Source: an uncultured archaeon (GTDB lineage Archaea > Thermoproteota > Nitrososphaeria > Nitrososphaerales > Gagatemarchaeaceae). From it: a stretch of 64,000 nt of DNA. The stretch lies in contig CAWFOU010000001.1 in NCBI GenBank assembly GCA_963817525.1, positions 320,001-384,000 on the forward strand, in the 5' to 3' direction. The position numbers and the translations under genes are program-made. This document shows, piece by piece, positions 194 to 4,626 of the stretch. How positions within the stretch are numbered: position 1 is the stretch's first letter; every line of letters starts with the position of its first letter. The notes beneath the pieces are model-generated. The model made no database searches, was not told the DNA's origin, and saw only the letters and a program-made list of their open reading frames with translations.

Positions 194-883
194 TCAGGGC
201 ATCTTCGCCGAGATCAGCGCGTGGTCCTTGTCAAAGGGGCGCAGGTCGATCACCCTCTCTACGACGAACCCCGCCTCGTTCAGCTTCTGCGCCTCCTCCC
301 TGAACACTAGCTTGGGGTCCTTGAGCTGGTCGATGCTCCTGGCCTTCACGATGAGAAGGAGCCTCCCTCCCTCCTTGAGGTGCCTCTTCGCGTTCTCCAT
401 GGCAATCTCCGTCTGGTCCCTCTGCGCGATGTCGCAGTAGACGACGTCCATCTTCCCGAACTCCCCGAACCTCTCCGTCTCCCGGGCGTCCGAGATGAAC
501 GGGATGACGTTCCCCCTCGCCTTCGCTACCTTCTCGAGGAACTCCCGGCCCACGCGGGCGGACATCTCCACGCCGACCACCAGCCCCTCGCCCCCCACGA
601 TGTCCGAGACGTGCGAGGCCGTGGTGCCCGTCGAGGCGCCCAGGTAGAGGACCTTGTCCCCCGCCTTGATGATGTCAGGGTCCAGCTCGCCCTTGAGGAT
701 GGCTCCGGCGAGCTTGCTCCTGTAGGGGTCCCAGCTGCGGTACTCACTGCCGTGGATCCTCAGAAGGTCTTCGTCGTATACCCTATTGCCCGGGACGAGG
801 TTTCTTGTAAAAACGCTTGTCCTTCCGTCCTCCCGGTTTCCTCTCCGCCCCCGGCCTTCCATAACGAGGACGTTGGTTGTCAT
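194..883 (-). CDS. flpA: Fibrillarin, C/D box RNP 2'-O-methyltransferase
   Basis: TRNLVPG..VY, YRSWDPYRSKLA, VLYLGASTGTTASHVSD, YCDIAQRDQ, KARSID motifs; downstream of nop5. Confidence 0.97.
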   Translation of the reverse strand: MTTNVLVMEGRGRRGNREDGRTSVFTRNLVPGNRVYDEDLLRIHGSEYRSWDPYRSKLAGAILKGELDPDIIKAGDKVLYLGASTGTTASHVSDIVGGEGLVVGVEMSARVGREFLEKVAKARGNVIPFISDARETERFGEFGKMDVVYCDIAQRDQTEIAMENAKRHLKEGGRLLLIVKARSIDQLKDPKLVFREEAQKLNEAGFVVERVIDLRPFDKDHALISAKMP

Positions 884-2024
884 TTCGGCGGAACTCTCTT
901 CGCTGCTCGGGTCGCGGCGGCGGTGGCTCCTTATACTTTATCTTGATCTCGGCGAGCCTCTTCTCGAACAGGCCCGTCAGCTCGTTGGCCTTGGTCCCCC
1001 TGTAGTAGTCGATCCGGGCGGCGATGGCTATCTTGTTGGCCAGGGTCCTAGCGATCTTGCCCCTCTGCCACTTCGGGGCCATGTGGACCGCCTCGTGCTG
1101 GAAGAGTATGCCGTGCTTCGGGGGCCTCGACCCCGTCCTTATGGCCCTGAAGAGCGCCTTCTCCGCGCCCAGTACCTGTATCGTGCTCGCGGGCAGCCTC
1201 GCCATCCTCTCGAGCCCCCCGGCCCTCGCGATGAGCCTCGCGCCGATCGTTGCCCCTGCGACCTGCGTGATGTTGGGGGCGATCTTGTTCATGGTCGAGT
1301 CGACGGTCTCTGCCATCTTCTCCCTCTCGTTGGCGGTCTTGACCGCGAGCTCGGCCAGGCCGACGATCCGATGCATGTCCTTCTCGGAGATCGTCCCTCC
1401 CTTGGACTTCTCCGACGCCAGCATTATCGCCTCTGCCTTCTTGCCGGCGTAGCCCTGCTTCTCAAGCGCCTCTTCGTCGAAGGTCCCGCGCCTCCCTATC
1501 TCGATTATCAGCTTGGCGAGGGCGAGGTTGTCCTTCAGGATGTCCTGCAGCTCGGGGAAGTGCAGGCTATACCATTCCATCGTCCTCTCCGTCGTGATAT
1601 TGAGGAAGCGGTCGAGCTCGTCGAGGGCCTGGATGGCGTTGACGAGGTGCAGGTCCTCCTTGGAGGAGGCCTCGCTCACCTCGTGCTCGGCCGCCGCGAT
1701 CGCGCGGGCCCTCGCCTCTCCTATGGCGCTCCCAGCGTCTCGAGCGAGCCCCGCCTTTGCCATTATCGCAGCCTTCCTAGAGTCGAGGTCGTCGCGCTCC
1801 TCGTCGGTCGCTATCGACGTCTCGATCCCGAACTCCTCCATCTTCTCCTTCGCAGGCATGCTGGAGACCTTGAGGCGGGAGATGCCCTTGCGCTTGACCC
1901 CCTCGGCGACCCTCTCCAGCTTCTCATCCCTCTCCATCGCCTCGGCCCTCTCCGAGACGAGGACGTCGTCCCCCTGGACGACTATGAACCCCGCCTCCGT
2001 CTCGTAGAGAATCGGCTCTGGCAA
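783..2024 (-). CDS. nop5: Nop5 (Nop56/58) C/D box RNP subunit
   Basis: EWYSLHFPEL, LPASTIQVLGAEKALF, PPKHGILFQH, RGKIARTLA motifs; basic C-terminal tail. Start placed at TTG 2024, ~30 nt from a TTTATC box. Confidence 0.96.
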   Translation of the reverse strand: MPEPILYETEAGFIVVQGDDVLVSERAEAMERDEKLERVAEGVKRKGISRLKVSSMPAKEKMEEFGIETSIATDEERDDLDSRKAAIMAKAGLARDAGSAIGEARARAIAAAEHEVSEASSKEDLHLVNAIQALDELDRFLNITTERTMEWYSLHFPELQDILKDNLALAKLIIEIGRRGTFDEEALEKQGYAGKKAEAIMLASEKSKGGTISEKDMHRIVGLAELAVKTANEREKMAETVDSTMNKIAPNITQVAGATIGARLIARAGGLERMARLPASTIQVLGAEKALFRAIRTGSRPPKHGILFQHEAVHMAPKWQRGKIARTLANKIAIAARIDYYRGTKANELTGLFEKRLAEIKIKYKEPPPPRPEQRREFRRNDNQRPRYGRPGAERKPGGRKDKRFYKKPRPGQ

Positions 2025-2159
2025 GAAAAATTCGATTCCAGCGTCCGCGGGGCACGGATAAAGGTTGTCGCTGCGGGTTGAACTCACGCTCTTCGCCAAT
2101 CGGCGGCTGAGGTCCTTCGAACCGACGTGGGCGGTTAAATCATCTGATTCGATGTGTTG

Positions 2160-2793
2160 ATGTTGGAACTGAGGTTCTGTGGGTCCTGTGGAAGGGCGCT
2201 GGAGAGGACGAAAAACGCCAAGTTTTGCGACAGGGCTTGCTATGCGCAGGCAGTCAGAGATGGCATCACCTCGAACAATGGCCGCTTTCGAAAGGGCAAC
2301 CCGTCCCCCAAAAAGGCAGGACGCTCGAATCTTGGGTCGGGGAGGAGAGAGCTCAAGAGATCAGAAACAGGATGTCTCAATCGTCGAAAGGGAAGGCCCC
2401 TTGGCTTAGAAGGTTGAACGAAGATGCGGAAGTCTTGGCGAAGAGAAAGGCTTCACGAAGATTCCACGAAGCCACCGTCCAAGAACTCGTCAAGCAATTC
2501 AGGAAGCTTGGTTGGAAGTGTTACACGCTGTCCGAATACGTCAGGGAAACGAGAACACCTGACGCGATTCTGTTTGACGGGAGAGAGCTCGTTGCGCTGG
2601 AGTGGAGCTGAAGAAGAAATGGAAGCCCAGCGCTGAGTTGATGACCCGGCGCCTGACCGATCTGAACGACCAATCGAGGTTCTTTGATAGGACAAGCCTG
2701 GTATTTCCAGACGAGAGGACTGAGCTGACCAAACAGATCCCCTCTTTCGTGGACGAGATATTGACTCACAAAAGATTATATCGGGACTCTTGA
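2160..2793 (+). pseudogene. Frameshifted homing-endonuclease-like nuclease (Zn finger + NUMOD3-like motif + PD-(D/E)xK-like domain)
   Basis: Three ORF pieces join by two single-base frameshifts (A-run 2310-2314; ~2602) into ~211 aa: CGSCG...FCDRAC, GRFRKGNPSPKKGRT...RMSQSSKGK, then PDAILFDGRELVALEVELKK. Lower GC than neighbours; TTAAAT box at ~2135. Confidence 0.65.
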
Positions 2794-2823
2794 TGCTCGG
2801 AATCGGAGGACTGAAAACAAAAC

Positions 2824-3019
2824 ATGCCGACCCACGGGAGTCAGCAGCTAAGAGCAAGTCTTACTGCCTCCAATCACTAAGGCCGGAAAAGTTCGCAGCC
2901 AAACGCCGAAAATTGAGGGAAAGCCCCACAAGGGTAAGATCCCCAAGGTCAGGAACACCCGGACCTACGTGAAGAGATTCACACTAAAGAGAAAGCCCGG
3001 ACAGAATTGGAGACTTTAG
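2824..3019 (+). CDS. rps30e: 30S ribosomal protein S30e, two exons (2824-2842 and 2874-3019)
   Basis: Spliced product [54 protein letters not shown] (54 aa) is a typical archaeal S30e; the unspliced frame stops at TAA 2878-2880. Confidence 0.93.
2843..2873 (+). other. 31-nt bulge-helix-bulge (BHB) intron in rps30e mRNA
   Basis: Central helix GGAG(2837-40)/CTCC(2868-71), 3-nt bulges TCA(2841-43) and AAT(2872-74), intron stem GCAG-c-TAAGA/TCTTA-CTGC; cutting after the second nt of each bulge creates the CTC (Leu) codon and restores frame. Confidence 0.88.
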
Positions 3020-4626
3020 ACTCCAATCCTCCCTCGGAAGGAGAGCTGGCGGCAGTCTCCTCGATTGTCGCCTCCATCCTCTCAGGGGACGTCACGTCCC
3101 GCCCCCACCTGGAGCGGGCCAAGAAGGAGGCCGCGAAGCGCTATCGTCTCGGCAAGTTCCTCAAGAACTCTCAGATCTACCTCGCGCTCTCACCAGAGGA
3201 GCGAGAAGGGAGGAAGGAGATGTTCCGCGTCCACCCCCGGAGGAGCGCCTCCGGAATCGTCATCGTCACTGTCTTCACGTCCCCTGCCAGCTGCCCCCAC
3301 GGCACCTGCGTCTACTGCCCGGGCGGCCCCTCCATGGGGACGCCCCAGAGCTACGTCCCTGACGGCCCCAGCATGAGAGGCGCGCGCGGGGTCGGCTTCG
3401 ACCCCTTCCTCCAGGCGCAGAAGATGCTCAGGAAGTACCTAGACCGCGGGCACGAGGCCTCGAAGGTCGAGCTGATGGTGGAGGGCGGGACCTTCCTCGC
3501 GATGCCGAGGGGATACCAGGAGTGGTTCATCAAGGGGGCGTTTGACGGCCTCAACTGCGCGCAGACTCCTTCTGTGTCTCTCGAGGAGGCACACACGGCA
3601 AACGAGTCGGCGGAGTACAGGTCAGTGGGCCTCACCATAGAGACCAAGCCTGACTGGTGCCGGCCCGAGCACGTCGACATGCTCCTCTCGTACGGGGTCA
3701 CCAAGGTGGAGATAGGGGTCCAAGCCCTAAGGGACGACATACTCGCGAGGAGCAACCGGGGCCACACCGTCCAGGACACGCTCGACGCGTTCCGCGTGGC
3801 GCGGGACGCCGGGCTCAAGGTCGCGGCCCACATGATGCCGGGGCTCCCCGGCTCCAACCCGGAGGACGACCTCGCCGACCTCCTGCGGCTGTTCGAGGAA
3901 GAGTCCCTCCGCCCCGACATGATGAAGCTCTACCCCACCACCGTCGTGAAGGGGACGGCCCTCGCGAAGATGTGCGAAGCGGGGCTCTACGAGCCCTACG
4001 ACCTCGAAACCGTCGTCAGCCTAATCGCCGAGATGAAGGTGCACGTCCCGCCCTGGCACAGGATAATGAGGATACAGCGGGAGATACCCGAGGCCGACAT
4101 CGCGGCCGGCAACAAGGCGGGGAACCTCAGGGAGCTCGTCCTCGCAAGGGTGAAGGCCGACGGCCACTCGTGCGGCTGCATAAGGTGCCGCGAGGTGGGC
4201 ATGGACACCCCCTCCGACCTCCAGGGCGGCGAAGAGGGCGACCTCGTCCTGCGCGTCACGAGCTATCCTGCCTCGGGAGGCGCCGAGGTCTTCGCCACCT
4301 ACGAGTACGAAAGGTCGGGCAAGCTCGCGGGGTTCGTCAGGATGCGCTCCCCGTCCGAGAGGTCGCACCGGCCGGAGATGGGCGGAGCTTGCATAGTGAG
4401 GGAGCTCAAGGTCTACGGGAGGGTGGTCTCTGTGGGCTCGAGGGACGAGCAGGCCTTCCAGCACCGGGGGCTGGGACGCTCCCTCCTCGAGGAGATGGAG
4501 AAGGAGGCCTCTGAGCGCTTCGACGCTCGCACGCTCCTGGTGATGAGCGCCGTGGGGACGAGGAACTACTATAGGAAGCACGGCTACGAGAGGTCGGGCC
4601 CCTACGTGGGCAAGAGTCTGAAATAG
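3007..4626 (+). CDS. elp3: Elp3-type radical SAM/GNAT tRNA wobble-uridine modifying enzyme
   Basis: CPHGTCVYCPGG, ETKPDW, HMMPGLPG, RIQREIP, RELKVYG, QHRGLG, SAVGTRNYY motifs. Confidence 0.96.
   Translation: METLDSNPPSEGELAAVSSIVASILSGDVTSRPHLERAKKEAAKRYRLGKFLKNSQIYLALSPEEREGRKEMFRVHPRRSASGIVIVTVFTSPASCPHGTCVYCPGGPSMGTPQSYVPDGPSMRGARGVGFDPFLQAQKMLRKYLDRGHEASKVELMVEGGTFLAMPRGYQEWFIKGAFDGLNCAQTPSVSLEEAHTANESAEYRSVGLTIETKPDWCRPEHVDMLLSYGVTKVEIGVQALRDDILARSNRGHTVQDTLDAFRVARDAGLKVAAHMMPGLPGSNPEDDLADLLRLFEEESLRPDMMKLYPTTVVKGTALAKMCEAGLYEPYDLETVVSLIAEMKVHVPPWHRIMRIQREIPEADIAAGNKAGNLRELVLARVKADGHSCGCIRCREVGMDTPSDLQGGEEGDLVLRVTSYPASGGAEVFATYEYERSGKLAGFVRMRSPSERSHRPEMGGACIVRELKVYGRVVSVGSRDEQAFQHRGLGRSLLEEMEKEASERFDARTLLVMSAVGTRNYYRKHGYERSGPYVGKSLK

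What the first reader, a model, noticed from the sequence alone, without database searches (positions are those of the whole stretch)
2824..3019. Ribosomal protein S30e mRNA carries a tRNA-type bulge-helix-bulge intron
Seen: MPTHGS and [12 protein letters not shown] are separated by 31 nt that break the frame and fold as a BHB (helix GGAG/CTCC, bulges TCA and AAT, 9-bp intron stem; exon-side stem only ~1 bp). Canonical cleavage after the second nt of each bulge builds CTC, giving the conserved [10 protein letters not shown]. Established: BHB introns are cut by EndA and ligated by RtcB; the classic mRNA example is crenarchaeal cbf5. I do not recall a reported rps30e case but cannot search. Inference: S30e synthesis depends on splicing, which may be regulatory, and gene callers will miss this gene.
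Basis: partly seen in the sequence, partly recalled or inferred. Interest (0 to 1): 0.92.

Follow-up and report, generated by a model that had tools for sequence, protein, structure and literature searches.

The report
tRNA-type intron in S30e mRNA
The only gene for ribosomal protein S30e in this soil archaeon (Nitrososphaerota) is broken by a 31-base insert shaped like a tRNA intron, so its messenger RNA very probably has to be cut and rejoined by the tRNA-splicing enzymes before the protein can be made.

Summary
rps30e (2824-3019, +) is split by a 31-nt insert (2843-2873) that folds as a relaxed bulge-helix-bulge (HBh') motif. Cutting after the second base of each bulge restores a 54-codon frame and the conserved Leu7.

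It is the only S30e locus in the genome. The same intron occurs in 34 of 81 genomes sampled from the family, 31 or 32 nt long. In a 20-sequence alignment 97.1% of cells pair and 7 of 14 pairs show compensatory changes, including one pair of the central helix that involves an exon codon.

A second, 19-20-nt BHB intron sits in the Lys11 codon in relatives (13 variants, 99.3% paired, all four inner-stem pairs covary). One congener carries both. Spliced reading frames are under strong purifying selection.

The genome encodes a crenarchaeal-type EndA alpha subunit with the specificity loop lysine, a non-catalytic paralogue, and RtcB. No RNA evidence could be obtained.

New here: each intron travels with its own free-standing homing-endonuclease-like gene directly upstream of rps30e.

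In the papers searched, splicing inside an archaeal coding sequence is documented only for cbf5. This scan had already noted S30e introns on other DNA (e1-5716575, e1-3972603, e1-356515, e1-5516860). Verdict: real, a new member of a known kind.

The parts
2824..2842 (+). rps30e exon 1: ATG, five further codons and the first base (C) of the Leu7 codon
   Evidence: All 19 bases are identical in 15 of the 20 intron-1 alleles of alignment A1; the other five differ at one base (col 1, 9 or 15).
2843..2873 (+). Intron 1, 31 nt, removed by cuts between 2842/2843 and 2873/2874
   Evidence: Its removal gives a 54-codon ORF.
2837..2840 (+). 5' strand of the central 4-bp helix (GGAG, exon; Gly5/Ser6 codons)
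   Evidence: Pairs with 2868-2871. In the family scan GGA goes with CTTC in 10 of 10 genomes and GGG with CTCC or CTCT in 24 of 24. In A1 the col 15/48 pair is G-C in 17 sequences and A-U in 3.
2841..2843 (+). 5' bulge TCA (cut after the second base)
   Evidence: Invariant in A1.
2844..2867 (+). Intron hairpin: GCAG/CTGC plus TAAGA/TCTTA, bulged C2848, loop 2854-2858
   Evidence: 6 of its 9 pairs show changes on both sides across 20 sequences.
2868..2871 (+). 3' strand of the central helix (CTCC, intron)
2872..2874 (+). 3' bulge AAT (cut after the second base; T2874 is exonic)
   Evidence: It is AAT or AGT in relatives.
2874..3019 (+). rps30e exon 2: the last two bases of Leu7, 47 codons, and the stop TAG at 3017-3019
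   Evidence: PF04758. It is the only S30e match in the genome.
2771..2781 (+). TATA-like box (AAAGATTATAT) about 45 nt upstream of the ATG; a GGAGG Shine-Dalgarno-like motif sits at 2805-2809
   Evidence: Read. The same motifs stand at the same distance in relatives. No promoter scan was run.
2154..2793 (+). Broken copy (three frame pieces) of a nuclease-like gene with a zinc ribbon and a PD-(D/E)xK fold, directly upstream of rps30e
   Evidence: Intact 201-215-aa homologues stand in the same place in G018, G014, G021, L060 and L072. The fold model resembles Hjc resolvases.

Best explanation
Bases 2843-2873 are an archaeal bulge-helix-bulge intron of the relaxed HBh' type inside the coding sequence of the single rps30e gene.

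Proposed mechanism:
1. The pre-mRNA folds so that the Gly5/Ser6 codons (GGAG) pair with the intron's 3' end (CUCC). This helix is flanked by two 3-nt bulges and a 9-bp intron hairpin.
2. The heterotetramer-type splicing endonuclease cuts between the second and third base of each bulge. Here that enzyme would be a catalytic alpha subunit carrying the crenarchaeal specificity loop plus a non-catalytic paralogue.
3. RtcB joins the exons. This creates the Leu7 codon (C + UC) and a 54-codon S30e reading frame.
4. The 31-nt intron is released, probably as a circle.

Unspliced RNA can only give an 18-residue peptide, so S30e synthesis depends on the tRNA-splicing machinery.

Shown here: the motif, its conservation with compensatory changes, frame and residue restoration, purifying selection, the single gene copy, and the presence of the enzymes. 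Inferred: the cleavage and ligation events themselves.
For: 1.

2. Canonical cut sites restore the frame and Leu7. Leu stands there in all 8 intronless congeners. After in-silico splicing, all 20 genes of the genus give 54-55-codon ORFs. The rule 'between second and third bulge residue' is stated for cbf5 in PMC2738675 (passage).

3. Covariation for intron 1, on 20 distinct sequences: 97.1% of 280 cells pair, 7 of 14 pairs have changes on both sides, 0 of 500 shuffles reach the covariation score, and slid controls pair at only 27-49%.

4. Family scan: the exact motif is in 34 of 81 genomes (7 of 10 genera), one hit each, with 0 hits for the reversed control. The exon base GGA or GGG tracks the intron's CTTC or CTCC/CTCT in 34 of 34. 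Intron length is 31 or 32 nt.

5. A second BHB intron of 19-20 nt lies in the Lys11 codon. It was found in 12 of 81 family genomes by exact pattern, plus three variants. On 13 distinct sequences 99.3% of cells pair, 5 of 11 pairs have double changes, and 0 of 500 shuffles reach the score. The MFE fold gives the hBHBh' motif in G007 and G003. G021 carries both introns.

6. Function: there is one S30e locus in G000, and in the single-contig genome G007 one significant locus. Mean pS is 0.61 against pN 0.075 over the 20 genes.

7. Enzymes:
- Two PF01974 genes are present.
- The 187-aa one is closest to solved crenarchaeal EndA chains 3p1z_B, 2cv8_A, 3ajv_B and 2zyz_B (E 1e-38 to 1e-42).
- Its K42 aligns without gaps to K44 of the A. 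pernix specificity loop (PMC6379350 passage).
- The paralogue has Lys where the catalytic His stands.
- RtcB is present.

8. The insert is not an assembly artefact. Logan contigs of two DNA runs carry it with 0 differences (X1 covers 2717-3392, X2 covers 2791-2901). Many independently assembled genomes carry homologues.

9. The same genome has a second split gene. rnhB lacks Pfam positions 1-7, and a 29-nt insert with CGGG/CCCG and 3-nt bulges restores them.
Against: - There is no RNA evidence. The only two RNA runs holding related words gave contigs of a roughly 88%-identical relative, not of this organism.
- The fold energy of the window sequence alone is unremarkable (z = -1.39).
- The exon-side helix is a single pair (G2836-C2875) plus an invariant distal GCC/GGC. 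Cleavage therefore presupposes a broad-specificity enzyme, which is inferred from sequence only.
- A register one base earlier at both bulges would also keep the frame, giving Ile or Val instead of Leu. This cannot be excluded without RNA.
- Related sequences are not independent, so shuffle counts overstate significance.
Confidence: 0.9

Rival explanations
1. Translational recoding: the ribosome bypasses (hops over) or frameshifts across the insert, as in phage T4 gene 60, and the RNA is not spliced.
For: The insert is short, begins six codons after the start, and is followed by a stop in the zero frame. A hairpin lies at the take-off region.
Against: - There is no matched take-off and landing codon. 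AGU (Ser6) has no AGU/AGC before exon 2.
- Landing would read AUC or GUC rather than the conserved Leu codon, which is assembled from both sides of the insert.
- The length varies between 31 and 32 nt.
- The second insert offers no matching landing codon either: AAA against UUA, CUA or CAA.
- Compensatory changes preserve precisely the 3-4-3 bulge-helix-bulge geometry in two unrelated inserts, which bypassing does not require.
Confidence: 0.03
2. The gene is a decaying pseudogene, disrupted by a small insertion, and S30e is dispensable or supplied from elsewhere.
For: S30e is missing from many archaea: in the control set only Sulfolobus matched. The genome is 95% complete, so a second copy could be unassembled. 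The neighbouring nuclease gene is itself broken.
Against: - There is a single locus in G000 and in the one-contig genome G007.
- Interrupted genes in 12 of the 20 genomes of the genus that hold S30e keep full-length frames after removal of the inserts.
- pN/pS is about 0.12. For example, G000 against G012 gives pS 0.58 and pN 0.008.
- The insert is conserved in 34 of 81 family genomes with structure-preserving changes.
Confidence: 0.03
3. The BHB is a processing or decay site only. EndA (or another nuclease) cuts the transcript to down-regulate it, and exons are not ligated into a translatable mRNA; or the insert is removed by a machinery other than EndA/RtcB.
For: EndA also processes non-tRNA substrates such as rRNA precursors and a 5' UTR in Haloferax (PMC7714728 passages).
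Against: Cleavage without ligation would leave these organisms without S30e, despite strong purifying selection on exon 2. The canonical cut positions restore the frame and the conserved residue in two different introns. RtcB is encoded.
Confidence: 0.03
4. Assembly or binning artefact: the 31 nt do not exist in the organism's DNA.
For: The genome is a metagenome-type assembly (15 contigs, 8.75% contamination).
Against: Contigs made by another assembler from two public DNA runs carry the insert with 0 differences, although these may come from the same sample. Homologous inserts occur in dozens of independently assembled genomes and metagenome contigs.
Confidence: 0.005

Closest known systems
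BHB intron of the cbf5 (pseudouridine synthase) pre-mRNA of Crenarchaeota (Watanabe 2002, Yoshinari 2006, Yokobori 2009; PMC2738675 read as passages, the two older papers seen only as references)
   Same: - A short ORF-less intron (16-44 bp there) inside a coding sequence.
- An unconventional BHB that needs the hetero-oligomeric endonuclease.
- Cuts between the second and third bulge residues.
- A patchy gain/loss pattern among relatives, and gene callers are confused by it.
   Different: - A different gene (ribosomal protein S30e) and a different phylum (Nitrososphaerota/Thaumarchaeota; record titles).
- The intron sits 19 nt after the start codon.
- There are two alternative or combined intron sites in one 165-nt gene.
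- Each intron is linked to a free-standing endonuclease gene.
- No cDNA evidence yet.
Non-canonical (HBh'/hBH) tRNA introns of TACK archaea, cut by (alpha-beta)2 EndA with the crenarchaea-specific loop (PMC6379350 and PMC5829648, passages)
   Same: The same motif class and the same predicted enzymes. The genome is rich in tRNA intron calls: 19 of 41 ARAGORN calls, some surely spurious.
   Different: The substrate is an mRNA. One strand of the central helix is made of codons, so codon choice (GGG/GGA) and intron sequence co-evolve.
46-nt BHB intron in the 5' UTR of Haloferax volcanii HVO_1309 (PMC7714728, passages)
   Same: An EndA substrate in an mRNA. That paper states that cbf5 was the only other mRNA case reported.
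   Different: It lies in the untranslated leader and does not interrupt the reading frame. It is a euryarchaeal case with a strict BHB.
Collaborative or trans homing of ORF-less introns with free-standing homing endonucleases in T4-like phages and cyanophages (PMC2790892, seen as search listing and start of abstract only; the rest recalled)
   Same: A free-standing endonuclease gene stands next to a target gene whose conserved site is interrupted by an ORF-less intron. Both show patchy distribution and decaying endonuclease copies.
   Different: Those introns are self-splicing group I introns in phage genomes. Here they are protein-spliced BHB micro-introns in a cellular ribosomal protein gene. 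No cleavage activity or target site is known for these nucleases.

Membership tests
Archaeal BHB (EndA-dependent) intron | Two 3-nt bulges on opposite strands separated by a 4-bp helix | tested here: met
   GGAG/CTCC with bulges TCA and AAT. Helix cells pair at 100% in 20 sequences.
Archaeal BHB (EndA-dependent) intron | Flanking helices on both sides (strict hBHBh') | tested here: not met
   The intron-side helix is 9 bp, but the exon-side helix is one invariant G-C pair plus a distal invariant GCC/GGC. It is therefore the relaxed HBh' class, not the strict motif. Intron 2 in relatives has 2-3 exon-side pairs.
Archaeal BHB (EndA-dependent) intron | Cuts between bulge residues 2 and 3 give a functional product | tested here: met
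   The frame and Leu7 (intron 1) or Lys11 (intron 2) are restored in all 12 interrupted genes of the genus; all 20 genes give 54-55-codon ORFs.
Archaeal BHB (EndA-dependent) intron | Structure conserved through compensatory changes | tested here: met
   Intron 1: 7 of 14 pairs show double changes, 0 of 500 shuffles reach the score. Intron 2: 5 of 11 pairs, 0 of 500.
Archaeal BHB (EndA-dependent) intron | Host encodes an endonuclease able to cut relaxed motifs, and RtcB | tested here: met
   EndA alpha carries the loop Lys. The paralogue lacks the catalytic His. RtcB is present. Activity itself was not tested.
Archaeal BHB (EndA-dependent) intron | Excision and exon ligation seen in RNA (junction reads, circular intron) | not testable with these tools
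   No RNA run holds this organism. The tools do not accept a joined junction sequence for a run search.
Programmed translational bypass (T4 gene 60 type) | Matched take-off and landing codons flanking the gap | tested here: not met
   No AGU/AGC landing codon precedes exon 2. At intron 2 the codons are AAA against UUA, CUA or CAA.
Homing-endonuclease-associated mobile intron (collaborative homing) | An endonuclease gene of a homing family adjacent to the intron-bearing target | tested here: met
   Intron 2: the ORF profile matches I-MsoI, I-CreI and an rRNA-intron endonuclease (E 1e-11 to 1e-5). 10 of 11 loci with close homologues carry intron 2. Intron 1: a nuclease-like ORF with an Hjc-like fold (Foldseek E 2.7e-3) occurs in 9 family loci, all with intron 1.
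Homing-endonuclease-associated mobile intron (collaborative homing) | The endonuclease cuts intron-less alleles at or near the insertion site, and the intron protects its own allele | not testable with these tools
   This needs enzyme assays. Indirect hints only: allele-specific exon-1 markers and incongruence with the neighbour-gene tree.

The most novel reading that the evidence does not exclude
The rps30e micro-introns may not be passive relics. They may be the 'immunity half' of two-part selfish elements.

Each BHB intron travels with its own free-standing homing-endonuclease gene inserted directly upstream of rps30e. For intron 1 this is a zinc-ribbon/PD-(D/E)xK-like nuclease. For intron 2 it is an I-CreI-type LAGLIDADG enzyme that even overlaps the gene's 5' end.

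In this reading, the nuclease cuts intron-less alleles in the ultra-conserved [11 protein letters not shown]-coding stretch. Repair then copies nuclease gene, promoter, exon 1 and intron together. The intron, harmless because the host's tRNA-splicing enzymes remove it, keeps the carrier's own gene uncut.

A third such pair stands 3.3 kb upstream in the same genome: a LAGLIDADG-like ORF plus the 29-nt rnhB intron. If true, this would be a route by which ORF-less BHB introns invade archaeal protein-coding genes.
Probability: 0.45. Interest if true: 0.85.

Novelty: new member of a known kind. Interest (0 to 1): 0.75.

Why it matters
In the papers I could search, splicing of an archaeal coding sequence by the tRNA-splicing enzymes is documented for one gene only, cbf5. 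PMC7714728 says so explicitly, and PMC2738675 says that other cases were only predicted.

Here a ribosomal protein of a widespread soil and peat lineage of Nitrososphaerota depends on such splicing, at two sites. The comparative material is rich: 34 of 81 family genomes carry the first intron, and there are four allele states (no intron, either one, or both) within one genus. That makes this a natural system for studying the gain and loss of archaeal mRNA introns.

Practical consequences:
- The gene is invisible to ORF-based gene callers, so S30e will be scored as missing in these genomes.
- Codon choice in exon 1 is constrained by RNA structure.

The tight pairing of each intron with a distinct homing-endonuclease-like gene offers a testable explanation of how ORF-less micro-introns enter conserved protein genes.

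Tried and rejected
- **RNA evidence.** The look-up of sequencing runs listed 20 runs, of which 2 were RNA (share 0.05). Read laying on X19, X20, X1 and X2 found no joints. The RNA contigs (131-134 nt laid, 15 differences) start at 2879 with loose 5' ends of 20 and 17 letters that read on as an uninterrupted S30e. They match none of my loci. They therefore come from an unknown relative and say nothing about splicing here.

- **Fold energy as evidence.** Not significant for the window sequence. The L065 sequence even prefers another fold at 37 C.

- **Class-wide Pfam scan (301 genomes, 293 with a match).** Only the best 150 matches are listed, and all start at model position 2-3. The 144 lower-scoring ones, where split genes would fall, are not shown, so no frequency can be derived. 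Four long matches or matches with a stop (G185, G066, G267, G272) turned out to be intact genes with C-terminal tails.

- **cbf5.** Its TruB_N domain is uninterrupted in this genome, so there is no cbf5 intron in that part.

- **The nuclease-like ORF upstream of rps30e.** It has no Pfam or PHROG family. Its nuclease nature rests on a medium-confidence model (pLDDT 72.9), weak Foldseek hits (E about 3e-3) and a conserved PD...ExE..K motif. Pfam gives only sub-threshold LAGLIDADG hits for the other ORFs; the PDB profile search settled that one.

- **Pairwise blastn of G021/G003, G000/G017, G000/G012 and G018/G022.** Homology resumes right after intron 1, but the upstream segments are replaced rather than simply inserted, so no clean insertion boundaries were obtained.

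- **A search for papers on ACG starts in archaea.** Nothing relevant.

- **Not attempted.** A genome-wide scan for further mRNA introns; a covariance-model search.
Full report
**The observation.**
The + strand carries ATG at 2824 followed by five codons (MPTHGS). The same frame then runs into TAA at 2877-2879. From 2876 a different frame reads [12 protein letters not shown]... up to TAG at 3017-3019. That 47-residue stretch matches Pfam Ribosomal_S30 positions 7-57 of 58 (E 1.6e-7, above the cut-off).

- central helix GGAG (2837-2840) paired with CTCC (2868-2871);
- bulges TCA (2841-2843) and AAT (2872-2874);
- a 9-bp intron hairpin with one bulged C;
- a single exon-side pair, G2836-C2875.

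The minimum-free-energy fold of 2824-2890 is exactly this structure. Its energy is not exceptional, however (z -1.39; 20 of 200 shuffles fold as well). Cutting after the second base of each bulge removes 2843-2873 (31 nt). It joins C2842 to T2874-C2875, which creates a Leu codon and one 54-codon frame. The ORF list holds no ORF with a canonical start in the exon-2 frame, so ordinary gene callers will not find the gene.

**Gene and organism.**
This is the only Ribosomal_S30 match in the 2.82-Mb, 95%-complete genome. Neighbours are nop5 (783-2099, minus strand) and an Elp3-type radical-SAM/GNAT gene (3007-4626). Record titles of close relatives name them Nitrososphaerales, Nitrososphaerota or Thaumarchaeota genomes assembled from metagenomes.

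**Intron 1 in relatives.**
The genus holds 23 genomes, and 20 of them have an S30e locus. Their states:

| State | Count | Genomes |
|---|---|---|
| 31-nt insert at the same place only | 4 | G000, G008, G014, G018 |
| That insert plus a second one | 1 | G021 |
| Second insert only | 7 | G003, G004, G006, G007, G009, G012, G016 |
| Uninterrupted | 8 | G001, G002, G010, G011, G015, G017, G020, G022 |

All 14 relatives from other families of the order that I inspected are uninterrupted. Searches of genome and metagenome contigs with the intact G022 protein added 15 more intron-1 loci.

In the resulting 20-sequence alignment:
- 97.1% of 280 cells form standard pairs;
- 7 of 14 pairs show changes on both sides;
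- none of 500 column shuffles reaches the covariation score;
- sliding the 3' partners by 1-3 columns drops pairing to 27-49%.

An exact-pattern scan of 81 genomes of the family found the motif once in each of 34 genomes (7 of 10 genera). The reversed control pattern gave none.

In that list the third base of the Gly5 codon and the intron base opposite to it always match. GGA goes with CTTC in 10 of 10, and GGG with CTCC (22) or CTCT (2) in 24 of 24. The pattern would have accepted any combination. This may be a single evolutionary event, because relatives are not independent, but it shows that an exon codon pairs with the intron's 3' end. Intron length is 31 nt, or 32 nt in a few.

**Intron 2.**
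The second insert lies within the Lys11 codon. It consists of:
- helix GGGG/CCCT (GGGT/GCCC or GCCT in three genomes);
- bulges AAA and NNA;
- a 4-5-bp hairpin;
- 2-3 exon-side pairs.

The MFE folds of G007 and G003 give exactly this hBHBh' shape (z -2.27). An exact pattern found it in 12 of 81 family genomes: genus g1 8 of 22, g98 3 of 3, g20 1 of 39. Three further variants turned up next to LAGLIDADG genes.

Thirteen distinct sequences give 99.3% pairing. Changes on both sides occur in 5 of 11 pairs, including all four hairpin pairs (TGCC/GGCA, TGCG/CGCA, CTCT/AGAG, CACC/GGTG, CATC/GATG). No shuffle of 500 reaches the score. The canonical cuts restore AAA (Lys) and the frame in every case.

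So there are two unrelated inserts in one 165-nt gene. Both have the 3-4-3 geometry, and both restore conserved residues at the canonical cut sites. This is hard to explain except by EndA-type splicing.

**Selection.**
With the inserts removed in silico, all 20 genes of the genus give 54-55-codon ORFs. Mean pairwise pS is 0.61 and pN 0.075. G000 against G008 gives 0.27 and 0.021; G000 against G012 (intron 2 type) gives 0.58 and 0.008. The G000 product differs from the intact G022 protein at one residue. The one-contig genome G007 has a single significant S30e locus, and it carries intron 2. These are working genes, not pseudogenes.

**Enzymes.**
Two genes carry the EndA N- and C-terminal domains.
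- The 187-aa protein is most similar to solved EndA chains 3p1z_B, 2cv8_A, 3ajv_B and 2zyz_B (E 1e-38 to 1e-42). From memory and from the review PMC6379350, these are the catalytic subunits of Aeropyrum, Sulfolobus and Pyrobaculum enzymes.
- Its alignment to 3p1z_B is gap-free across the specificity loop and places K42 opposite K44. That lysine is the one the review singles out as needed for broad specificity.
- The second paralogue keeps the Tyr and Lys but has Lys in place of the catalytic His. This is as expected for a structural beta-type subunit. The identity of the triad residues is partly recalled.
- RtcB is present.
- ARAGORN tRNA genes, 19 with an intron, some with implausibly long ones.

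**Rivals.**
- *Ribosomal bypassing.* There are no matching take-off and landing codons at either insert. Bypassing would not produce the Leu codon, which is assembled from both sides. It does not require the conserved bulge geometry.
- *Pseudogene.* This is contradicted by single-copy status and purifying selection.
- *Assembly artefact.* This is contradicted by contigs of two DNA runs with 0 differences across the insert and by the many independent assemblies.
- *Alternative cut register.* A register one base earlier at both bulges would keep the frame but give Ile or Val. The canonical register gives the Leu seen in all 8 uninterrupted congeners. Only RNA can settle this.

**Context: endonuclease genes.**
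Following notes of this scan on the same genome, I checked the stretch 2154-2793. It is a copy, broken into three frames, of a gene that is intact (201-215 aa) directly upstream of rps30e in G018, G014, G021, L060 and L072. The copy in L134 is cut by a contig end, and the copy in L088 is broken.

All eight of these loci carry intron 1, that is 8 of the 20 intron-1 loci of alignment A1. None of the 15 loci of the genus without intron 1 has the gene.

The protein has an N-terminal zinc ribbon and an invariant PD...ExE..K motif. It matches no Pfam or PHROG family. Its model (pLDDT 72.9) is closest to archaeal Hjc resolvases, the R2 restriction-like endonuclease domain and VRR-NUC (E about 3e-3). 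G000 has only this one copy.

In a sample of 121 genomes of the order, 7 have a homologue; one of them, G391, is unpublished and was not inspected. All five newly inspected ones stand directly upstream of rps30e:
- G317, which is the L060 locus;
- G375, broken, with both introns;
- three from another family with no intron 1: two with an uninterrupted gene (G393, G379), and G374, whose gene has a 1-nt frame break.

The intron-2-only genomes carry a different gene in the same place. It is a C2H2-finger plus single-motif LAGLIDADG protein of 161-211 aa whose 3' end overlaps the first 17-56 nt of rps30e. It is found in all 7 of these genomes, with frameshifts in G004 and G016. Its profile matches I-MsoI (E 1e-11), an rRNA-intron-encoded endonuclease and I-CreI.

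In the family scan, close homologues (E at most 1e-20) occur in 11 genomes, always at rps30e. Ten of these carry intron 2. The eleventh (G438) has a broken copy and no intron. The five intron-2 loci without it are exactly those that also carry intron 1 (G021, G375, G397, G403, G407).

A third pair lies 3.3 kb upstream in G000. rnhB lacks Pfam positions 1-7. A 29-nt insert with helix CGGG/CCCG and bulges AGA and CGA restores the DEAGRG-type motif. The ORF just upstream has LAGLIDADG-like motifs (Pfam E 5.9e-4, below the cut-off).

**Allele history.**
A tree of the neighbouring Elp3 gene (34 rows; 13 of 31 inner branches well supported) resolves three ingroup clades:

| Clade | Intron 1 | Intron 2 |
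|---|---|---|
| First | 13 of 13 | not tallied |
| Second | 4 of 10 | 3 of 10 |
| Third | 1 of 8 (G021) | 4 of 8 |

G021 is sister to G003, which has intron 2 only. Yet all 20 intron-1 alleles share exon-1 markers that play no part in the BHB: ATG (TTG once) and CCG. All 15 other alleles of the genus have CCA, and 14 of them have ACG at the start position.

Intron state thus follows allele class rather than the neighbour-gene tree. This means lateral exchange or gene conversion at this locus, in one direction or the other. Together with the endonuclease genes and their decaying copies, this fits homing with co-conversion. It does not prove it, and I put that reading at about 0.45.

**Literature and novelty.**
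Five searches listed no paper that holds S30e or eS30 together with archaeal intron terms. Both terms had 0 occurrences in every listed paper.
- PMC7714728 (passages) states that cbf5 is the only reported BHB intron in an mRNA besides its own 5'-UTR case.
- PMC2738675 (passages) says that splicing was confirmed for no gene other than cbf5, although introns in other genes had been predicted.

This scan had already noted S30e introns on other DNA: a 19-nt one in a peat Nitrososphaeria genome (e1-5716575), e1-3972603, e1-356515, and Asgard cases e1-5516860 and e1-5516858. It has also noted many other mRNA BHB introns. I therefore class this as a new member of a known kind. The linkage to two endonuclease families is the part that goes beyond earlier descriptions.

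**What is missing.**
There is no RNA from this organism. The two metatranscriptome runs gave contigs of an unidentified relative only. Splicing, cut positions, circle formation and any regulatory role remain to be shown.

Noticed in passing
Loci L040, L045, L047, L030, L031, L048-L051, L006, L027, L052, L053, L033 (start of rps30e); also L087, L226, L243, L137, L151/L152: 14 of the 20 rps30e genes of the genus have ACG where the others, and all 14 order-level relatives, have ATG or GTG. No canonical start stands in frame in the 80 nt upstream, 9 of the 14 have an in-frame stop there, and a TATA box lies about 45 nt upstream. Other lineages show GCG, GTA, ATA or TCG at that position. This could be near-cognate initiation, re-initiation after the overlapping upstream ORF, or C-to-U editing; it is unresolved. 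All intron-1 alleles have ATG (TTG once).
   Followed up: partly
window 2154-2793 (+): Broken copy (three frames) of a zinc-ribbon/PD-(D/E)xK-like nuclease gene between nop5 and rps30e. Its 3' end contains the rps30e promoter. Intact copies stand in the same place in G018, G014, G021, L060 and L072.
   Followed up: yes
L027:1665-2294(-), L033:866-1498(+), L047:1663-2235(-), L030:1659-2240(-), L031:982-1464(+): An I-CreI-type LAGLIDADG gene with an N-terminal C2H2 finger overlaps the 5' end of rps30e in all intron-2-only genomes. In G007, G004 and G016 its frame ends at the TAG of the intron's 3' bulge.
   Followed up: yes
G000:C1:319480-320156 (L217:1440-1560), about 400-500 nt before the window start: rnhB (RNase HII) is split after the DEAG-coding bases by a 29-nt BHB-shaped insert. 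A LAGLIDADG-like ORF (L217:443-1162, apparently frameshifted further on) ends at its start.
   Followed up: partly
G000:C1:1102130-1104943 (L214, L215): The RtcB match is split between model positions 50 and 49 by about 1.4 kb within one 996-codon open frame. This is probably an intein.
   Followed up: no
L227:1937-1980 (G374): rps30e of this genome of another family has one extra C after the Leu7 codon (a frame break). Its upstream nuclease homologue has two TGA codons. This is either joint decay or assembly errors.
   Followed up: no
L224:1870-1960 (G375); L239-L241 (genus g98): Genomes outside the genus carry both introns. G375's intron 2 is 20 nt long, with a completely different hairpin (CTCTC/GAGAG).
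   Followed up: yes
window 3007-3019: The longest Elp3 ORF (TTG at 3007) overlaps the last 13 nt of rps30e. The true start may lie further downstream.
   Followed up: no
G000 whole genome: ARAGORN tRNA genes, 19 of them with introns (14 to 1694 nt). The very long ones are probably false or contain other elements. The 64-kb window itself holds no tRNA gene.
   Followed up: no
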